Positions 25,956 to 58,851 of a stretch of DNA of 64,000 nucleotides are shown in pieces (positions within the stretch are counted from its first letter, which is position 1; each line of letters begins with the position of its first letter). The DNA is taken from the IMG/VR virus record IMGVR_UViG_3300042940_001591; one strand, 5' to 3'. The DNA comes from a virus (taxonomy: Duplodnaviria > Caudoviricetes). The translations under genes were made by a program, and so were the position numbers. The notes under the pieces were generated by a model that was not told the origin of the DNA, ran no database searches, and saw only the letters and a program-made list of their open reading frames with translations.

Positions 25956-27884
25956 TTATTTAGTTTTTGGTGGTGCTGTATATTCATCATTACCTGTGTT
26001 TATAAAATCTTCTTTTACACTTGCATCTCTGATAATTTGTCTAGTCCAACCATCCATTAATGCTTCAGATGATTTAGCTGAAACTTCAACTTTCACAACT
26101 TTTGTTGATGAGGTATTTGCGGCCGCTTGTTTAGCTTCCGCAGCTTTCTTTTCTGCCTCCGCAACATTCATCGCATTTGTTTGTGTTGTAGCAGTACCTT
26201 GTGATTTTGGTTTTTCACCTTTAAGTTCGCTAATGTAATTACCAACCAACTTATTAAAGTTATCACTCATTTGAACCGTACCCTTTGAGACATTATCTGC
26301 AGTTTCTTTGACGAATTTCTGAGCATCTTCCCCCGTTAAACCCGCAGCTTCGGCTGCAGATTTAGCCATATTAACTACACGACCTCTTGTTGTAGCGGCC
26401 ATGAATCCAATATCTCTTTCTATGTTTTCCATAGCACTTAACTGTCCTCTTGCAATGTCTTCTGTAGACATTTTTTCAAATGCGGCTTGGTTTGCTAATA
26501 ATGTAGTTTTTTGTGCATTTGTTAAATCTTCTAAAATAACTTCTGTTTGTCCACCTAATTCACTCATTAAAGATTTAGGAACTTCAATAACCATTTTACC
26601 ATCTTTCATTTGTGATAAGTTAGTTAAGAATTCCCTTTCTTTATCTTCCATTACTAATCCACTTGTCATTAAAGCACTCGCAGCGGCAGTTCTTTCTGAA
26701 GCCGCTATTGCACCTTTAGCCAATTCTTGATACGATATACCCAATTCACTTGCCATTGCTTTGGCCTTTCTTAGGTTAACACCTGTAATTTCAAATCTAC
26801 CTTGTTCTTGATTATATGTGGTTAATGAACCCGCAGCACCAATTAATGCGTCTTGTAATCCTTCCACATTATTGGTTGCCATGTACATTAATTTTATTGG
26901 GTCACCAAAGTCACCCATAGCACCTCCCAATACCGATAAATTTGCACTTAATTCTAACGCACCTTCAGGACTAAACACTTTATCCGCAATCTGATAAACA
27001 GAATCCATACTTATTCTAAATTCATTGGCCTTTTGAACCATTCTATTTAATCCTTGTACACCATTTGCAAATCCAAATTCATTTAATTTTCCTAAATTGT
27101 CTCTTAAATCTTGTGTTGTTTTTTTACTATTCAAACCTAAAGATAATGAAGATTTACCAGCAGTATCAATGGCCTTGGTTGCGTCTGAAGCACCTAAACC
27201 GACTTTTTCAAATTGACCAAATACTCTACCCATTTCACTTAAATCTCCAACAAAAGACCTTGCGGTTGCTGCCGCTTGACCTATTGTTTCTTTTGATATG
27301 AGATTAAATCTACCCGATTCTGACATCATGTTTGTCATCATATCAGTTAGTTGTTGCATCCCATATCCTAATCTAAGTGTTGATGGATATGCGTCTATTA
27401 TTTCTTCTCTTAGACCTTTTGAAAGTTCCCCTTGCATACCAACTTTTTCGTTGATATCTGTTCTTAATTGAGCTTCTTGTTTTAATTGAGTTGCTATTCC
27501 ACCACCAACTTCTTCAACCAATCTACTAGCCATCCCCATTAGTCCTCCAGTTACCTGTCCTTTTTTATTAATAATATCTAACATATTACTAATTCTAAAC
27601 ATTTCACCTTCGGCGTATTGTGATGATTGTGTTTTTTGTGTGTCTATTGTTCCTCTTACAAAATCAACAGCCTTATTTCCAAAATTTTGTTTGGTATCCG
27701 TTATTGGTGTATTTGTTGTACCTAATTTTTCATTATATAACTTCCATGTACCTGCTAATGATGCTCCATCGGAGCTGTCTCCCTTATATGCTTTACCAAA
27801 TTCTTTTTGATACGCGTCGGCAAACGCAATTTTGAAAGCGCTTTCATTTGTAATTCCACTAGGTATTCTGCTTAATAATCCCAT
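25956..27884 (-). CDS. Tape measure protein
   Basis: Ala/Gly/Leu/Met-rich alpha-helical 642-aa protein directly downstream of the tail chaperone genes. Confidence 0.75.
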   Translation of the reverse strand: MGLLSRIPSGITNESAFKIAFADAYQKEFGKAYKGDSSDGASLAGTWKLYNEKLGTTNTPITDTKQNFGNKAVDFVRGTIDTQKTQSSQYAEGEMFRISNMLDIINKKGQVTGGLMGMASRLVEEVGGGIATQLKQEAQLRTDINEKVGMQGELSKGLREEIIDAYPSTLRLGYGMQQLTDMMTNMMSESGRFNLISKETIGQAAATARSFVGDLSEMGRVFGQFEKVGLGASDATKAIDTAGKSSLSLGLNSKKTTQDLRDNLGKLNEFGFANGVQGLNRMVQKANEFRISMDSVYQIADKVFSPEGALELSANLSVLGGAMGDFGDPIKLMYMATNNVEGLQDALIGAAGSLTTYNQEQGRFEITGVNLRKAKAMASELGISYQELAKGAIAASERTAAASALMTSGLVMEDKEREFLTNLSQMKDGKMVIEVPKSLMSELGGQTEVILEDLTNAQKTTLLANQAAFEKMSTEDIARGQLSAMENIERDIGFMAATTRGRVVNMAKSAAEAAGLTGEDAQKFVKETADNVSKGTVQMSDNFNKLVGNYISELKGEKPKSQGTATTQTNAMNVAEAEKKAAEAKQAAANTSSTKVVKVEVSAKSSEALMDGWTRQIIRDASVKEDFINTGNDEYTAPPKTK

Positions 27885-27901: not shown

Positions 27902-28084
27902 TTAATTATTTCCATTTTCTAATGATATTAAATATTGTATATAATAACGTCTGATATAGACGGGCATAGAAAGGATATCTCCATATGAGAATCCTCTTTT
28001 AACTAAAAATAAAATCTCGTCTAACTGTCCCTTTTTATAATCCGTAGAAAGGACGAAAAAACTCAACCCCGAATCCAATTTCAA
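27902..28084 (-). CDS. Tail chaperone C-terminal extension (gp51/GT-like); probably reached by frameshift
   Basis: QLDEILFLVKRGFSYGDILSMPVYIRRYYIQYL; only a TTG start, lying inside the upstream gene; overlaps gp26-like in the +1 frame. Confidence 0.7.
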   Translation of the reverse strand: MKLDSGLSFFVLSTDYKKGQLDEILFLVKRGFSYGDILSMPVYIRRYYIQYLISLENGNN

Positions 28085-28784
28085 CTTGGATTGTGTCTCC
28101 TGACGGGGTGATTGCTGTTTGGGTTAAGTCTAACCCCGGTTTATTTTCGTTGATAAATTTTCTAAAATCTTGTGAGTCCTTAATCGGCATGTTCTCAACA
28201 AAGTTTCTAATATTCATTAGGTCTTTATTGCCCGCGACCGATTTAATCATCATTTCAAGTTGTTTAGTGATAATTGGAGCCACTCCGTTACCGTTCCAAC
28301 TATCTCTAATTGCGTCTATTTCCTTTTCTTGTTTCTTATTTAAAAAATTAAATGTGATATCTAATTTTGATTTTTCCATGAAATAAGAATATTCACCATT
28401 TGAATCTGCAACTAATTTAAAGTCTTTTGTTTTTACTGTTGATAAATCTAATTCAAAATCAAACTGTTCTCCTGTTTTTGGGTCTGTTGATGTAACTTTA
28501 TAATCACTACCAAATGAGGTATTTCTTAAGAATATTAAAATCGCTTGTCTATCCTCCTCAACCAAATCATCGATAGGTAAATCTTTATCTAAAATTTTTC
28601 TTTTTAGTAATTCGTCAACAACTTTATTAGTTGCAATTAAACTTGGGGATGATAAGATATTCTCATCTGCGGCGGTTAAGTATGCGATTCTTACCGATTT
28701 TTTGTTATTTGTATAATGAATACCTCTACTTGGTAATTCAACTACGTCATAAGCAATGTTGGGGTCAATTCTAAATTCTTCCAT
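28035..28784 (-). CDS. Baseplate hub / tail assembly chaperone, T4 gp26-like
   Basis: YDVVELPSRGIHY...LTAADENIL...LRNTSFGSDY...DPKTGEQFDFELDL...IGFGVEFFRP; lies between tube and tape measure. Confidence 0.8.
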   Translation of the reverse strand: MEEFRIDPNIAYDVVELPSRGIHYTNNKKSVRIAYLTAADENILSSPSLIATNKVVDELLKRKILDKDLPIDDLVEEDRQAILIFLRNTSFGSDYKVTSTDPKTGEQFDFELDLSTVKTKDFKLVADSNGEYSYFMEKSKLDITFNFLNKKQEKEIDAIRDSWNGNGVAPIITKQLEMMIKSVAGNKDLMNIRNFVENMPIKDSQDFRKFINENKPGLDLTQTAITPSGDTIQVEIGFGVEFFRPFYGL

Positions 28785-28898: not shown

Positions 28899-29387
28899 TT
28901 AGTATACTTGGATACAACGGTCCATTCTCAAGTTACAAGTAATTTGAGCTAAAGCATCGTTGTTGTAATCTAAATCACCAAAGTTTAAACTTGTTAAGAA
29001 ACAACCTTGGATAATCCATTTTTCAACAACAACTCCTGTTGGGTCAAGCATTTCAAGTTCAATGTCTTTTTTGTATCCGGCAGCATATCCCATTCTACCT
29101 GTTACTGATTCCGCATGTAAACGGAACCATTCCATTAACGCTTGAGAAGCTGAAGGACCAATCGGGTCTTTAAAAGTAACACTCATTTCTTCCCAAGTGA
29201 ATCTACCAGCAACATAAGTTGAAGTATTCAAGAAAGGAATCTCTGTTGAGTTAATTTTAGCTGAAGGTCTTTTTGTTGAAGATACATACCATTCGTTAAT
29301 TCCCAAAGATGAAGGGAATCTAAGAATAAATCTGTTCTGTCTTTTCGGTTCGTAAGGAACCGGCATTTTCATTAGTAAATCTGCCAT
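28899..29387 (-). CDS. Tail tube protein (gp19-like)
   Basis: YEPKRQNRFIL, AGRFTWEEMSVTFKDPI, YKKDIELEMLDPTGVVVEKWIIQGCF, ITCNLRMDRC. Confidence 0.93.
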   Translation of the reverse strand: MADLLMKMPVPYEPKRQNRFILRFPSSLGINEWYVSSTKRPSAKINSTEIPFLNTSTYVAGRFTWEEMSVTFKDPIGPSASQALMEWFRLHAESVTGRMGYAAGYKKDIELEMLDPTGVVVEKWIIQGCFLTSLNFGDLDYNNDALAQITCNLRMDRCIQVY

Positions 29388-29727: not shown

Positions 29728-32607
29728 TTAGATATTCTCAAATGAGGCTCCTGTTGGAGTGATTACAAATTCAACATCAATAAATTCAAGAGAACGAGTA
29801 GGTTTAATATAAATTTTACCTCTCAATGTGTTTGCATCAATATCTTCTGGGTCACTAGAAACAGTAACTTTGAATTCGTACAAACCTCTTTCCTTTTTAA
29901 TTGAATCCAAGATAGGGTTAACCAATCTTAAGAACTCTTGTCTTACTTGCTCGTCATTTTGTTCAAATAACAATCTTACCGCAACTGCTGAAATTAATTT
30001 TCTTGCTCTCAATAATAATCTTCTTACGTTGATTCTATCCAATGCAGATTCTCTTACTTGAAGTGTTTTGTTACCCCAAATAATTGTACCTGTATCAGAG
30101 AAAGTTGCAATTGGGTTGATTCTATTCTTATATAATTCATCTCTTTCGTCTAAAGTTAATTTTTTGGTTGCTTTAATGGCATTTACCAAACCTCTTGAAT
30201 AACCCGCGACTGCGAACCAAGGATAAGAAACGTTGTCGGTTAATGCGATATTCTTCAATACCTCACCTGTTGGTGGGATATATAGTTGAGTTGCATTATC
30301 CGTATCTCTTACTTGAATCCAAGGCCAATATGTTGCAGAATAGTTAGAATCAATAGATACTGTATCTAATTCACCAACAACGTCAGCAGCTGCGGTTGTT
30401 CCCGTAATGTTAGGAGAGTTCATAATGTATAATGAATCTGCTCTATCATTCTCAATCATATCAATTGCTTGATTAACTAAAGAACTATGGTCACGGAAGT
30501 TAATACCTGGAGTTGCAAATACGTTAATATCAACCGCTTCAGGGTTAGCAAATGTGTTTATAGCGTCTAAATAAGCATAATAGTCAGAGTTTCCATTATC
30601 AGCGTTAAACACCCCACTATACGCACCAGTTGTTTTATTATTGTTGTAAGTTGTTTTACCAAATATATAACCGTCGGTGTTGGTTCTTGATGTTCTATAG
30701 ATATCCCAACCATCTGTACCTCCACATGTTGCAAATGTAAATTTACGATATGCAATATTTTCTAACGCTCCTTTTGTTATACCTTCTAAATCGTAAGGTG
30801 TACATTGGTATGTAGTTCCTGTAATATCGGTAGCATTAACAGATAAGTGGAATCCGAAAGTTTCAGTTGTACCACTTGTACCTTTATATTTAAATAAATC
30901 CTTATCAAATCCGACTTGTGATGATAATCCTAACATTACTTTCTTTACCTTATCACCTGACTCAATATTTTCAGTACCGTCTGCGTTATATGTTACTACA
31001 TCACCAGCATCGATATATTCAGTTTTATAAATTACACTACCTAATGTTGTTCCACTAAAGTTTGCATTATTAACAAATCCTTTAAATCCTGCAGGGAACG
31101 CATCCGATGGATGATTATCAGCTAAAGATAACATTATATATTTTGAACGTAATTCGTACTCACCATCGGCGGTACCTATTTTTCTACCAACAAAACCTGG
31201 CATGTCAGGATTCATAGAACATCTTGAATATTTTTCAAGAACAACCATATTGTCATCAGTATCGTTAAAATCACGAACAACAATGTCAAATTCACCTGAA
31301 TCTAAATTAATGTTTTGGATTGTTATTTTAACTTGGTAGTTAGAACCTTCACCGTCTGAAATTGTTATTACTTCAAATAAATCTGAAACTTTTCCACCAC
31401 GAACTTCTGAAACCACCATTGGAGATAAAGATGTTGACCATTGACCTAAAAAGTTAGAACCTTCATCATTAAAAACTTTAGTTGTACTTAAACCTCTAAT
31501 CAATCCTCTTTCATAAGCGGATTTAACTAAATTAGGATAAGATTCATAAACATAAAGAGGAAAATCTTCATATGACTTGTCAAATACATCAGAACCTAAT
31601 ACTTTTTTAATGTATTTTGTTGACGTTGTATCTAAAGTACAATTAAATGATTTTGCACCTCCTGTTGTTCCTGTAACATTAATTTGAAATTCACCTAATG
31701 GATTTAATTCAATATCTGTAACTTCGGCCAATGAAACTTGTGTGGTGCCCGTAACTTCATAAGTTAATATCTCTGAAGCATAACGACCTCTTGATCTTAA
31801 TGTTGCCACAGATATACTATCATAATCGGTATTAACCTCAGCACCAAATGTGTATTTTACAACATCAAATCTAGTAGTACCTGAATTCCAAGCAAATTTA
31901 TATGAATAAAGTTGATTAATTGTTGCACCTGAATTAAAGAAAGTATTGTACCATTCTTTATTATTAGGTGTTTCACTGTATAGTTTACCTGTTAAAGGCG
32001 ATACAACTTGTAATGTCGTACTAGGTAATGTTACACCTGAAGGCATTAAACCAATTGTAAACCATTTACCGTCATCTGTAGTTGTAAAACCACTAAAATT
32101 TGATACTATATAACTTGTTATAGATACTCCTTCTGTTGAAGTTTTACCCGATAACTCACCATATATTGTACTTCCGGTAATTGTTGCGGTTGTTGCAGAC
32201 ATAGTAGTACTTCCAGACGTACTATAACTTGAATCCCAAGTAGCACCTGTTGGTGAAATACCACCTAATGTTTTTATTGCGAATGTTTTACCTGCTTTAT
32301 ATCCAGTCAATCCAAGTACTCTTGTTACGAATAATTGGTTTGACTCTTGTAAATAAGATTTAGCTACGTAAGGTAACTCATATTTTGGGTTATTAGATCC
32401 GTCTCCATATTTTTCTGGAGAGGTACCGCCAAAGTATGTTTTGAATTCGTCGAAGTCTCCTATTAAAATTGGTTCGAAAGCTGGACCTTTTAAGGTTTCA
32501 CCTACTAATCCCAATGTTGTTACTCCGACACTTTGAGCCACGAATGTTAGATCCTTCTCAGATGTGTAGACACCTGGAGAAACGAATACTCTGTTTGAAT
32601 TTGCCAT
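29728..32607 (-). CDS. Tail sheath protein (gp18-like)
   Basis: FVSPGVYTSEKDL, LVGETLKGPAFEP, YWPW, PPTGEV, PWFAVAGYSRG, RDELYKNRINPI, IWGNKTLQ, ALDRINVRRLL, IKPTRSLEFI. Confidence 0.97.
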   Translation of the reverse strand: MANSNRVFVSPGVYTSEKDLTFVAQSVGVTTLGLVGETLKGPAFEPILIGDFDEFKTYFGGTSPEKYGDGSNNPKYELPYVAKSYLQESNQLFVTRVLGLTGYKAGKTFAIKTLGGISPTGATWDSSYSTSGSTTMSATTATITGSTIYGELSGKTSTEGVSITSYIVSNFSGFTTTDDGKWFTIGLMPSGVTLPSTTLQVVSPLTGKLYSETPNNKEWYNTFFNSGATINQLYSYKFAWNSGTTRFDVVKYTFGAEVNTDYDSISVATLRSRGRYASEILTYEVTGTTQVSLAEVTDIELNPLGEFQINVTGTTGGAKSFNCTLDTTSTKYIKKVLGSDVFDKSYEDFPLYVYESYPNLVKSAYERGLIRGLSTTKVFNDEGSNFLGQWSTSLSPMVVSEVRGGKVSDLFEVITISDGEGSNYQVKITIQNINLDSGEFDIVVRDFNDTDDNMVVLEKYSRCSMNPDMPGFVGRKIGTADGEYELRSKYIMLSLADNHPSDAFPAGFKGFVNNANFSGTTLGSVIYKTEYIDAGDVVTYNADGTENIESGDKVKKVMLGLSSQVGFDKDLFKYKGTSGTTETFGFHLSVNATDITGTTYQCTPYDLEGITKGALENIAYRKFTFATCGGTDGWDIYRTSRTNTDGYIFGKTTYNNNKTTGAYSGVFNADNGNSDYYAYLDAINTFANPEAVDINVFATPGINFRDHSSLVNQAIDMIENDRADSLYIMNSPNITGTTAAADVVGELDTVSIDSNYSATYWPWIQVRDTDNATQLYIPPTGEVLKNIALTDNVSYPWFAVAGYSRGLVNAIKATKKLTLDERDELYKNRINPIATFSDTGTIIWGNKTLQVRESALDRINVRRLLLRARKLISAVAVRLLFEQNDEQVRQEFLRLVNPILDSIKKERGLYEFKVTVSSDPEDIDANTLRGKIYIKPTRSLEFIDVEFVITPTGASFENI

Positions 32608-57456: not shown

Positions 57457-57480
57457 TTTGATATTTATAAATAAAAAGAG

Positions 57481-58851
57481 ATGTCATATTTTCGTTCATA
57501 TTTTGAGAAAAACAACACAATCATAAAGGATTCTGCTGTTAATACCTCTAAAAATCCAACAACTGAGATATTTTATGGTTCTGGATTTTCTAAATTTATA
57601 TTTAAATTAGATTTAGACAGTTTACAGAATAAAGTAAACTCGGGTGAATTGGTTGTAACCAACACCACTAACCACACATTACATCTAACAAACACGATTT
57701 TTGGTGACGAGGGACTAAAAGGTAAAAACAGAAGTACCTCAAGAGATAGAGCAACTTCTTTTGATTTAATAATCTTTAAAATAACAGAATTTTGGGACGA
57801 GGGTGTTGGTTTTGATTACCAAGACTCTGGTTATGATTTTACAACTGGTAACCACACATTTGATGAGAGACCATCTAACTGGTTTAATAGAACCACTTTA
57901 AATGAATGGACAAGTCAAGGTGTATATGCAACAGACCCAATTATAGTAACTTCAATGCATTTTGACAATGGTAATGAGGATATTAATGTCGATATAACAG
58001 GATATGTTAATGGTATATTATCGGGAGATACAAATCACGGATTGGGAATTGCGTTTTCGGTGTTATATCAAGATTTAAGTCCCGAGGTTGATAACTCTGT
58101 AGCGTTTTTTACGAAATACACCCAAACGTTCTTTGAACCTTATATGGAATCAACATTTGATGATAGAATAGAAGATGATAGACAAAATTTTATCGGTGGG
58201 GTTGACCAAAATTTATATTTGTATGTTACAAAAGGTTCTAATTTTTATGATTTAGATGAACTTCCAATGGTGGATATATTGGATAGTACAAATACCGTTA
58301 TTAGTGGATTGTCCAATTTTACAGCAACAAAAGTCAAAAAGGGAGTTTACAAAGTTACATTTGGAATTGATGGTGTTTTGTGTGACGGTAAAAAATTCTT
58401 TTTTGATAAGTGGAAAAATTTAACCTTAGATGGTGTTGACATTTCAGATGTCACTCAAAAATTCGTACCTAAACCATACACCTCATTATATACTATTGGT
58501 GCAAATCAAACAGAATTACAAAGATATGCAATACAATATTTTGGTATAAAACAATCCGATAAGATAAAAAGAGGAGAAAAAAGAAAAGTTGTAATAAGTT
58601 TTAAATCAATTGACAATCCTAAAACGGTGTTATTTGACGAGGTTTATTATAGAATGTTTATAAAGGAGGGGGTTACCGATGTTATTATTCATGATTGGAC
58701 TTTGACAGATACCACAAATGAAAATTCTTTTACATTAGACACGTCTATTTATATTCCGAGGGAATATTTTATAGAAATAAAAGGAAAAACTCATACAGAA
58801 GAAATCTTCTATAAAGAACATATAAAATTTGAAATTTTATCTGAAAAATAA
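57481..58851 (+). CDS. Virion structural protein (beta-rich)
   Basis: YFEKNNTIIKDS...FDLIIFKITEFWDEGVG...NHGLGIAF...FFTKYTQTFFEPY; late motif at 57462-57468. Confidence 0.65.
   Translation: MSYFRSYFEKNNTIIKDSAVNTSKNPTTEIFYGSGFSKFIFKLDLDSLQNKVNSGELVVTNTTNHTLHLTNTIFGDEGLKGKNRSTSRDRATSFDLIIFKITEFWDEGVGFDYQDSGYDFTTGNHTFDERPSNWFNRTTLNEWTSQGVYATDPIIVTSMHFDNGNEDINVDITGYVNGILSGDTNHGLGIAFSVLYQDLSPEVDNSVAFFTKYTQTFFEPYMESTFDDRIEDDRQNFIGGVDQNLYLYVTKGSNFYDLDELPMVDILDSTNTVISGLSNFTATKVKKGVYKVTFGIDGVLCDGKKFFFDKWKNLTLDGVDISDVTQKFVPKPYTSLYTIGANQTELQRYAIQYFGIKQSDKIKRGEKRKVVISFKSIDNPKTVLFDEVYYRMFIKEGVTDVIIHDWTLTDTTNENSFTLDTSIYIPREYFIEIKGKTHTEEIFYKEHIKFEILSEK

What the first reader, a model, noticed from the sequence alone, without database searches (positions are those of the whole stretch)
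27902..28784. Probable programmed +1 (or -2) frameshift at GAG-TTT-TTT-CGT-C fusing the gp26-like chaperone to a start-less ORF
Seen: the chaperone ends IGFGVEFFRPFYGL*. The downstream 60-aa ORF overlaps it in the +1 frame, has only a TTG start inside the upstream gene, and no ATG until its last third. The minus-strand sequence GAGTTTTTTCGTC (28052-28064) lets a Phe-tRNA re-pair from TTT to TTC (+1) or TTT to TTT (-2). This would give a ~293-294 aa fusion ...VEFF-VLSTDYKKGQLDEILFLVKRGFSYGDILSMPVYIRRYY. Established: tail chaperones upstream of tape measure genes use frameshifts (lambda G/GT -1, Mu -2), and UUU_CGU is a known +1 motif in influenza PA-X, whereas T4 gp26 and gp51 are separate genes. 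Inference: a recoding event linking T4-type gp26/gp51 to the G/GT scheme.
Basis: partly seen in the sequence, partly recalled or inferred. Interest (0 to 1): 0.8.

Follow-up and report, generated by a model that had tools for sequence, protein, structure and literature searches.

The report
Forward frameshift in phage tail-chaperone gene
One tail-assembly gene of this uncultured lake giant phage very probably makes a short and a long protein because some ribosomes slip one base forward at UUU-UUU-CGU, doing with one gene what phage T4 does with its two genes 26 and 51.

Summary
On the minus strand a 249-aa gp26-like gene (28035-28784, PF12322) lies between the tail tube gene and a tape-measure-like gene. 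It ends six codons after GAG TTT TTT CGT. A start-less ORF continues in the +1 frame to 27902.

In 51 distinct relatives the +1 ORF is under purifying selection (pN/pS 0.21). In 24 of them a +1-frame TAG confines any shift to 9 codons that hold TTT_CGN, and 11 have no start codon before a late Met. The site always reads TTT then CGN, never AGA, which is 80% of Arg codons.

Four more clades (about 150 distinct sequences) and five isolated or named phages keep the +1 offset and an in-frame TTT followed by C or T. Two natural variants gave the extension its own ATG and lost the motif. Interrupted T-runs (TTC TTT CGY) favour +1 over -2.

The short product matches T4 gp26 and the long one T4 gp51 in profile coverage. 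Other clades use -1 at T_TTT_TTC. I found no paper reporting this; earlier reports of this scan found the same on other DNA. No protein evidence exists.

The parts
28035..28784 (-). Zero-frame gene for the short product (249 aa), a gp26-like baseplate-hub / tape-measure assembly chaperone
   Evidence: ORF. PF12322 T4_baseplate E 1e-10 and phrog_150 'baseplate hub' E 7e-14. AlphaFold model with mean pLDDT 88. 61 BFVD matches at E<=0.001, many named baseplate hub subunit or assembly chaperone.
28053..28064 (-). Shift site GAG TTT TTT CGT. Proposed P-site codon TTT 28058-28056 re-pairs with TTC 28057-28055, with CGT 28055-28053 in the A site.
   Evidence: Codon table of 51 distinct relatives: F243 TTT 51/51, F242 TTT 50/51, R244 CGC 28 / CGT 20 / CGA 3 and never AGA. 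In 24 of 51 the +1 frame is open for only 9 codons, which contain this site.
27902..28054 (-). +1-frame coding region for the 50-aa C-terminal extension of the long product (stop at 27904-27902); total long form 293 aa
   Evidence: pN/pS is 0.21 in the +1 frame against 1.1 and 2.2 in the other frames, and 0.18 for the part before the only conserved ATG. Homologous extensions occur in the +1 frame of distant phages.
28066..28109 (-). Conserved RNA hairpin ending 7 nt upstream of the P-site codon (outer stem 28109-28104 with 28071-28066; inner stem 28092-28086 with 28078-28072); candidate 5' stimulator
   Evidence: 95.8% of cells are paired. GC<->AU and UA<->CG compensatory changes give a covariation score above all 500 shuffles and above the slid controls. 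Each compensatory change appears in two separate branches of the gene tree. The hairpin is not found in the other +1 clades.
28899..29387 (-). Tail tube gene (162 aa), immediately upstream
   Evidence: phrog_4542 tail tube E 3e-26; PF06841 gp19 just under its cut-off.
29728..32607 (-). Tail sheath gene (959 aa)
   Evidence: PF04984, PF17482 and phrog_23.
25956..27884 (-). Tape-measure-like gene (642 aa), immediately downstream
   Evidence: Assigned by position only. The same slot is annotated tape measure protein in Flavobacterium phage immuto and Bacillus phage HSE3. There is no Pfam or PHROG hit, and BLASTP to the immuto protein is weak (E 0.049).

Best explanation
[quoted passage not shown] Most ribosomes read GAG UUU UUU CGU CCU ... 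and stop at UAA, giving the 249-aa short form. With the second UUU in the P site and CGU awaited in the A site, a fraction of peptidyl-tRNA-Phe (anticodon GAA) slips one base forward onto UUC. The next codon read is then GUC, and translation runs 50 codons further to give a 293-aa long form (...VEFF-VLSTDYKK...).

A conserved hairpin that ends 7 nt upstream may push the ribosome forward. By analogy with lambda G/GT and T4 gp26/gp51, both forms would act on the tape measure protein and the baseplate hub during tail assembly, and the extension would add a second contact.

Shown here: the anatomy, the conservation, the coding signal, the absence of a start codon, and family membership. Inferred: the slip itself, its efficiency, the role of the hairpin and of the A-site codon, and the function of the extension.
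For: (1) The extension is coding but has no start. pN/pS is 0.21 in the +1 frame and 0.18 before the only conserved ATG. 11 of 51 distinct relatives have no ATG/GTG/TTG before that Met.

(2) In 24 of 51 a +1-frame TAG lies two codons before TTT TTC. The shift must therefore occur within 9 codons, and the TTG at 28084 cannot serve as a start.

(3) The site is invariant at synonymous positions. TTT is 51/51, against 73% TTT at other Phe codons of the gene. The Arg codon is always CGN, and is CGC in 28 of 51, although CGC is 0.8% and AGA 80% of Arg codons in these phages.

(4) Of 205 distinct sequences with a long +1 ORF, across five clades, 202 carry an in-frame TTT followed by C or T at the homologous F-[FL] position. 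The same layout is seen in Microcystis phage Mel-JY01, Flavobacterium phage immuto, Bacillus phage HSE3, Streptococcus phage GXN1 and the uncultured phage LR756508.

(5) Natural control: in L182 and L188 the extension has its own ATG, and the motif has decayed to TTC TTG / TTC CTT.

(6) The 0-frame tail RPFYG is also conserved, so both products appear to be used.

(7) phrog_150 coverage: short form to position 233, shifted form to 264, T4 gp26 to 235, T4 gp51 to 280.

(8) UUU_CGN is an established +1 motif (PMC3498833, PMC5052127). An upstream hairpin stimulates +1 shifting on 70S ribosomes (PMC6321510). The hairpin here shows covariation.
Against: There is no protein, ribosome-profiling or reporter evidence, and the efficiency is unknown.

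In this window the T-run is six long, so a -2 slip cannot be excluded for this phage itself. It would give the same frame with one extra Phe.

The 'hungry codon' element is doubtful. A 92%-complete relative encodes its own tRNA-Arg(ACG), tRNA-Trp and tRNA-Phe. CGT, the codon in this window, is not very rare (about 18% of Arg codons). In other clades the A-site codon is TGG, TAC or TTC.

The upstream hairpin is limited to this clade.

The L182/L188 variants show that the extension can be made as a separate protein in some phages.

Similarity of the extension to T4 gp51 is weak on its own (hhalign E 0.14).
Confidence: 0.82

Rival explanations
1. A -2 ribosomal slip on the T6 run. Peptidyl-tRNA-Phe on the second UUU moves two bases back onto UUU. 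This gives the same frame and a 294-aa product with an extra Phe (EFFFVLS...).
Against: L038/L039 (GAA TTC TTT CGC), Bacillus phage HSE3 and Streptococcus phage GXN1 (TTC TTT CGT), the LR756508 relatives (TTC TTT TGG) and LR756508 itself (AAC TTT CTA) keep the +1-frame extension. In all of them a -2 re-pairing would meet a mismatch, whereas +1 onto UUC/UUU still works.
Confidence: 0.07
2. The small ORF is translated on its own, either by initiation at the TTG (28084) or a non-canonical codon, or by termination-reinitiation at the upstream stop. The result would be a separate peptide of about 50-60 aa.
For: A TTG with AGGAG 12 nt upstream exists in this window. In L182/L188 the homologous module is a separate gene with its own ATG. 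Databases hold short ORF calls for it.
Against: In 24 of 51 distinct relatives a TAG separates that TTG from the ORF, and 11 have no canonical start before codon +23. Residues encoded before the 0-frame stop (L-S-x-D/E-Y) are conserved in the +1 frame across clades (L invariant, Y in at least 90%). The 0-frame tails differ in length and sequence between clades. Translation in +1 must therefore begin upstream of the stop. No start codon lies next to the stop.
Confidence: 0.05
3. Transcriptional slippage: RNA polymerase drops one U (or adds two) in the T-run, so a share of the mRNAs carries the fused frame.
For: A homopolymer run of six T, or seven in the TTT TTT TGG clades.
Against: The run is only 3-4 T in several clades that keep the arrangement. 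Productive slippage usually needs longer runs (own knowledge; reviewed in PMC5009743).
Confidence: 0.03
4. There is no recoding. The overlap is an assembly error, a pseudogene or a chance ORF.
For: None beyond the absence of direct protein evidence. One locus (L004) has a premature stop at a contig end.
Against: The same frame structure occurs in about 260 independent contigs from many samples, in four isolated phages and in one named uncultured-phage assembly. The +1 ORF shows strong purifying selection.
Confidence: 0.01

Closest known systems
Lambda gpG/gpGT and the conserved frameshift of tail assembly chaperone genes (Levin 1993; Xu, Hendrix, Duda 2004, 2013, 2014; as summarised in PMC5009743)
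   Same: The gene sits between the major tail/tube gene and the tape measure gene. It yields a short product and a C-terminally extended product from an overlapping start-less ORF, through a conserved slippery site close to the 3' end. The weak fold matches include the HK97 tail assembly chaperone (2ob9, Z 5.1).
   Different: The direction is +1, not -1. The site is UUU_CGN rather than an X_XXY_YYZ heptamer. The protein belongs to PF12322 (T4 gp26/gp51), not to the G/GT Pfam families. The host virus is a contractile-tailed giant phage. The review states that G-T frameshifting is conserved 'except T4'.
Phage T4 gp26 (208 aa) and gp51 (249 aa), hub assembly chaperones (Leiman et al. 2010, PMC3004832)
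   Same: Same family (PF12322, phrog_150). gp26 ends ...KEFFELL*, just as the short form here ends ...VEFFRPFYGL*. gp51 carries a C-terminal extension of about 45 aa at the profile positions reached by the shifted product.
   Different: T4 uses two separate, divergently transcribed genes and no recoding. gene 26 also has an internal-start product, 26'. Direct sequence similarity of the extensions is weak (E 0.14).
-1 arrangement of gp26 and short 'gp51' in T4-like cyanophages and relatives (P-SSM2, Methylophilales phage Melnitz, Agrobacterium phage OLIVR5, Delftia phage PhiW-14)
   Same: gp26 ends at an FF motif on a T-run, followed by a start-poor ORF annotated gp51 or hub assembly catalyst. 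Sullivan et al. 2010 noted that cyanophage gp51 is only the C-terminal ~20% (PMC3037559).
   Different: There the run is phased T_TTT_TTC and the extension is in the -1 frame. Here it is phased TTT_TTT_C and the extension is in the +1 frame.
UUU_CGN +1 frameshift motif of influenza A PA-X (UCC_UUU_CGU) and plant amalgaviruses (PMC3498833, PMC5052127)
   Same: The core is identical: P-site UUU re-pairs to UUC, with CGN in the A site.
   Different: Those cases are on eukaryotic 80S ribosomes in RNA viruses. Here the setting is a bacterial host and a dsDNA phage, with a different E-site codon (UUU) and a clade-specific upstream hairpin.
Other +1 frameshifts in tailed viruses: Listeria phage PSA capsid and tail genes (Zimmer 2003, as cited in PMC9024508) and the haloarchaeal myovirus HSTV-2 chaperone ('very likely +1', PMC5009743)
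   Same: +1 recoding in structural or tail-assembly genes of tailed viruses.
   Different: The sites differ (PSA: Pro codons next to a stop, from my own knowledge) and so do the proteins. No family-wide survey was reported.

Membership tests
PF12322 / phrog_150 (T4 gp26-gp51 baseplate hub assembly chaperones) | Profile match above the curated cut-off | tested here: met
   PF12322 scores 42.1 bits against a cut-off of 24.5. phrog_150 E 7e-14. T4 gp26 and gp51 hit the same two profiles.
PF12322 / phrog_150 (T4 gp26-gp51 baseplate hub assembly chaperones) | Shared fold with annotated members | tested here: met
   A model with pLDDT 88 has 61 BFVD matches at E<=0.001, among them baseplate hub subunits and assembly chaperones of Bacillus, Aeromonas, Campylobacter and Acidovorax phages.
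PF12322 / phrog_150 (T4 gp26-gp51 baseplate hub assembly chaperones) | Long form carries the gp51-type C-terminal extension | tested here: inconclusive
   The phrog_150 alignment extends from profile position 233 to 264 when the shift is applied, for only +2.8 bits. hhalign places the extension on gp51 residues 219-242 at E 0.14. There is no hit to phrog_634.
G/GT-type frameshifted tail assembly chaperone system | Gene lies between the tail tube gene and the tape measure gene | tested here: met
   The order sheath, tube, gp26-like, +1 ORF, 642-aa protein is seen. The same order, with an annotated tape measure protein, is seen in phages immuto and HSE3.
G/GT-type frameshifted tail assembly chaperone system | Overlapping downstream ORF without its own start, coding, reached through a conserved slippery site | tested here: met
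G/GT-type frameshifted tail assembly chaperone system | -1 slip on an X_XXY_YYZ heptamer | tested here: not met
   The -1 frame closes 4 codons after the stop and the extension is in +1. It works like G/GT but with the other direction of shift.
G/GT-type frameshifted tail assembly chaperone system | Tail assembly chaperone fold | tested here: inconclusive
   VIA-align against 48,161 chains: 3fgx Z 6.2, HK97 tail assembly chaperone 2ob9 Z 5.1 (95 residues aligned), YqbN 3klu Z 4.7. All are below the Z of about 8 at which a match is safe. Foldseek against the PDB found nothing.
G/GT-type frameshifted tail assembly chaperone system | Both products made in a fixed ratio and both needed for tail assembly | not testable with these tools
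   Needs protein analysis and genetics.
UUU_CGN +1 frameshift motif | In-frame UUU followed by CGN, with the extension in +1 | tested here: met
   TTT CGT in the window. TTT CGC/CGT/CGA in all 51 distinct relatives.
UUU_CGN +1 frameshift motif | Slowly decoded A-site codon | tested here: inconclusive
   CGC is 0.8% and all CGN about 14% of Arg codons in the clade. However, a near-complete relative encodes tRNA-Arg(ACG), and host tRNA pools are unknown.
prfB-type +1 frameshift (CUU_UGA with Shine-Dalgarno 3 nt upstream) | A-site stop codon and closely spaced internal SD | tested here: not met
   The A site holds a sense codon. The nearest G-run ends 8 nt before the P-site codon, and AGGAG lies 38 nt before it.
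Transcriptional slippage | Long homopolymer run conserved in length | tested here: not met
   The run is 6 T here and 3-4 T in several clades that keep the arrangement.

The most novel reading that the evidence does not exclude
All long-tailed phages, T4 included, need a short and a long version of one tape-measure/hub chaperone. The gp26-gp51 family would supply this pair in four interchangeable ways: two genes (T4), a -1 slip on T_TTT_TTC, a +1 slip on UUU_Y, or a separate small gene. The UUU_CGN site with its upstream hairpin in this clade would be a bacterial-ribosome case of the +1 motif so far described in influenza A virus and plant amalgaviruses.
Probability: 0.55. Interest if true: 0.8.

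Novelty: new variant of a known kind. Interest (0 to 1): 0.72.

Why it matters
A frameshift in the tail chaperone gene is among the most conserved recoding events of tailed phages, and reviews list T4 as the exception (PMC5009743). This locus and its relatives suggest that the T4-type chaperone family follows the same short-plus-long logic. It would reach that outcome by a +1 slip here, by a -1 slip in cyanophage-like clades, and by gene duplication in T4.

That gives a testable function for gp26 and gp51, whose roles have been unclear for decades (PMC3004832). It would also correct the annotation of hundreds of phage genomes in which the extension is missed or called 'truncated gp51'. And it offers a natural series of +1 sites (UUU_CGN, UUU_UGG, UUU_CUU), with and without an upstream hairpin, for the study of +1 frameshifting on bacterial ribosomes.

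Tried and rejected
At first I rejected the gp51 link, because T4 gene 51 is divergent from gene 26 and gene 26 is followed by gene 25. Earlier scan notes led me to test family membership, and I reversed that judgement.

Pairwise BLASTP of the shifted protein against T4 gp51 gave nothing. A PDB sequence search gave nothing, and so did Foldseek against the PDB.

An exhaustive phmmer search with the 50-aa extension found only 16 proteins. All but two were short ORF calls. P0124 (158 aa) is an in-frame fusion whose frame switch lies about 8 codons upstream of FF.

There is no conserved RNA structure downstream of the site. There is no conserved upstream hairpin in the other +1 clades.

The motif CTATTTATA before the next gene is not enriched in the window.

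The held 150-kb record has no tRNA genes. ARAGORN reported ordinary triplet anticodons for every tRNA of the relative.

Metatranscriptome runs are held only as contigs. A few short RNA-library contigs of relatives cross the site without an indel, which says nothing about rare slippage or about expression.

Full report
ANATOMY. On the minus strand the window carries a contractile-tail module. It comprises a sheath gene (29728-32607, 959 aa), a tube gene (28899-29387), a 249-aa gene (28035-28784), a small overlapping ORF (27902-28084) and a 642-aa tape-measure-like gene (25956-27884). The 249-aa protein matches PF12322 'T4_baseplate' (42 bits, cut-off 24.5) and phrog_150 'baseplate hub'. It ends ...IGFGVEFFRPFYGL*. 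The DNA at the site reads GAG TTT TTT CGT CCT TTC TAC GGA TTA TAA. The small ORF is in the +1 frame. Read stop to stop, it opens 29 codons before the 0-frame stop and runs 44 codons beyond it. The window belongs to a 150,872-bp virus record estimated to be 45% complete, which implies a giant phage of roughly 300 kb. DNA runs that hold the stretch are labelled lake water metagenomes.

IS THE +1 ORF A GENE WITHOUT A START? Eighty IMG/VR loci encode relatives at 70-100% protein identity. In all 79 loci where the +1 ORF ends inside the locus, it runs 42-44 codons past the 0-frame stop. The exception, L004, has a premature stop beside a contig end. Among 51 distinct sequences, pairwise pN/pS of the extension is 0.21 in the +1 frame and 1.1 and 2.2 in the other two frames. 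For the 22 codons before the only conserved ATG it is 0.18. In 24 of the 51 the valine codon is GTA, which creates a +1-frame TAG (GGG GTA GAR TTT TTT CG). The +1 frame is then open for only 9 codons before the 0-frame stop, and the TTG at 28084 is cut off from the ORF. Eleven sequences have no ATG, GTG or TTG anywhere before the conserved Met 23 codons past the stop. The conserved N-terminal half of the extension therefore cannot be reached by ordinary initiation.

THE SITE. Within that 9-codon window the only place where a P-site tRNA can re-pair one base forward is UUU_C. The second Phe codon is TTT in 51 of 51 sequences and the first in 50 of 51, while other Phe codons of the gene are 73% TTT. 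The following Arg codon is CGC (28), CGT (20) or CGA (3) and never AGA. Yet AGA is 80% and CGC 0.8% of Arg codons in these phages (for the window alone). The 0-frame tail R-P-F-Y-G is itself conserved, with synonymous changes that alter the +1-frame residues (V/A/D, T/M). Both reading frames are therefore used.

+1 OR -2. In this window a -2 slip on T6 would also re-pair perfectly. L038/L039 read GAA TTC TTT CGC. Bacillus phage HSE3 and Streptococcus phage GXN1 read TTC TTT CGT. The LR756508-like clade reads TTC TTT TGG, and LR756508 itself reads AAC TTT CTA. All of these keep the +1-frame extension and permit UUU->UUY re-pairing at +1. A -2 move would meet a mismatch. I therefore favour +1.

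BREADTH. Five phage records at about 25-30% identity show the same order of genes and a +1 ORF of 64-89 codons. The order is sheath, tube, gp26-like gene, +1 ORF, then a long gene that two of the records annotate as tape measure. The extension of this window matches the +1 ORF of Mel-JY01 (E 0.06, at the expected place). The Mel-JY01 extension matches the immuto +1 ORF (E 7e-4). Four further scans of IMG/VR gave 182 loci. In all, 205 distinct sequences have a long +1 ORF. Of these, 202 carry an in-frame TTT followed by C or T at the homologous F-[FL] position. The forms are TTT TTT TGG, TTT CTT TGG, TTC TTT TGG, CTT TTT TGG, TTT CTA TGG, TTT TTT TAC and TTT TTT CGN. The three exceptions read TTA TTY AAT CCC AGT; there CCC_A may be the site, which I did not test. 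Two loci, L182 and L188, act as a natural control. Their extension module has its own ATG just after the stop, no +1 ORF exists, and the motif has decayed to TTC TTG TAT and TTC CTT TGG. The extensions of all clades align on L-x-x-[DE]-Y ... G-[FY]-x-[FYW] ... MP-[IV]-x-x-R.

RELATION TO T4 AND TO -1 CLADES. T4 gp26 (208 aa) and gp51 (249 aa) both match PF12322 and phrog_150. gp26 covers profile positions 14-235 and gp51 13-280. Our short form covers 14-233 and the shifted form (P0001) 14-264. T4 gp26 ends ...KEFFELL*, the same EFF-plus-a-few-residues ending. A profile of the extensions aligns to gp51 residues 219-242 ([24 protein letters not shown]), but only at E 0.14. In T4 the two genes are divergent and no recoding is needed. 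In P-SSM2, Melnitz, OLIVR5 and PhiW-14, gp26 ends on AGT/GAT TTT TTC or TTT, and the annotated short 'gp51' lies in the -1 frame. This fits the remark of Sullivan et al. that cyanophage gp51 is only the C-terminal fifth (PMC3037559). Leiman et al. list gp26 and gp51 as hub assembly chaperones (PMC3004832). Some GenBank records already name them 'tape measure protein assembly chaperone'. The family thus appears to supply a short and a long chaperone by two genes, by -1, by +1, or by a separate small gene.

FOLD. AlphaFold2 with a 74-row alignment gives pLDDT 88 and pTM 0.81. BFVD returns 61 matches at E<=0.001, many of them annotated baseplate hub subunit or assembly chaperone. Foldseek against the PDB finds nothing. 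An exhaustive VIA-align search puts 3fgx (Z 6.2), the HK97 tail assembly chaperone 2ob9 (Z 5.1) and YqbN 3klu (Z 4.7) at ranks 1-3. 3fgx and 3klu align to roughly residues 2-100, and 2ob9 to residues 61-219. These Z values are too low to establish a shared fold. I count them as a hint only.

POSSIBLE STIMULATORS. I found no conserved downstream structure. Upstream, a two-stem hairpin (28109-28066) ends 7 nt before the P-site codon. On 29 distinct sequences 95.8% of cells pair. One pair alternates GC (18) and AU (11) without a mismatch, and another shows UA/UG/CG. The covariation score exceeds all 500 shuffles and all slid controls. On a tree built from the rest of the gene, each compensatory change occurs in two separate branches. 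Recombination could mimic that pattern. An upstream refolding hairpin stimulates +1 and attenuates -1 shifting on 70S ribosomes (PMC6321510). The hairpin is absent from the other +1 clades, so it is at most a clade-specific enhancer. The 'slow A-site codon' idea has mixed support. CGC is very rare, but a 92%-complete relative carries 24 tRNA genes, including Arg(ACG), Trp(CCA) and Phe(GAA). ARAGORN reported ordinary triplet anticodons for all of them, so nothing points to four-base decoding.

LITERATURE AND EARLIER SCAN NOTES. Full-text searches found no report of a frameshift in gp26/gp51-family genes. The 2016 review says that G-T frameshifting is conserved among long-tailed phages 'except T4', and mentions a likely +1 case in the archaeal myovirus HSTV-2. 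The library covers open-access papers only. Earlier reports of this scan describe the same phenomenon on other DNA, mostly the -1 form and once a +1 form at TTT-TTT-CGG. I re-tested their main claims here.

LIMITS. All evidence is comparative. RNA runs were available only as contigs.

VERDICT. It is a new variant of a known kind: a tail-chaperone frameshift that runs forward, in the T4 gp26/gp51 family.

Noticed in passing
L182:1917-2252 and L188:1914-2213: In two IMG/VR relatives of the immuto-like clade the extension module is a separate ORF with its own ATG and about 20 extra N-terminal residues. The TTT_Y motif of the upstream gene is lost there. This is a natural unfused form.
   Followed up: partly
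P0124 (158 aa, metagenome protein): An in-frame fusion of the C-terminal half of a gp26-like core with the extension. The frame switch lies about 8 codons upstream of the FF motif. It may be a real indel fusion or an assembly error. The contig could not be fetched.
   Followed up: partly
L194, L197, L198 (relatives of Bacillus phage HSE3): The +1 extension is kept but there is no TTT_Y: the site reads TTA TTY AAT CCC AGT AAG. The only re-pairable codon in the 9-codon window is CCC_A, which suggests a different +1 site on tRNA-Pro.
   Followed up: no
G001:C1:574-5575 (288-kb relative, loci L282, L285, L302): An array of 24 tRNA genes, including Arg(ACG), Arg(UCU), Trp(CCA), Phe(GAA), Leu(UAG) and Ile(UAU). 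The held 150-kb record of the window's own phage has none, probably because it is a fragment.
   Followed up: partly
window 57480-58851 (+), site at about 57490: In-frame TTT_CGN occurs only twice in the 40 long ORFs of the window (17,899 codons; about 5 expected from codon frequencies). One case is the shift site and the other is TAT TTT CGT TCA here. This hints at avoidance but is not significant.
   Followed up: no
window 28095-28102 (-), internal loop of the hairpin: An invariant TC(A/C)GGAGA, a Shine-Dalgarno-like AGGAG, lies 38 nt upstream of the P-site codon. It encodes S-G-D/E and is probably a protein constraint. The two gene starts inspected here (28784 and 27884) show no such motif.
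   Followed up: no
L083:3803-4090 (T4 gene 26'): T4 gene 26 has an annotated internal-start product, 26' (the C-terminal 95 aa). T4 therefore makes three related chaperone forms. Whether 26' has a counterpart in the frameshifting phages is unknown.
   Followed up: no
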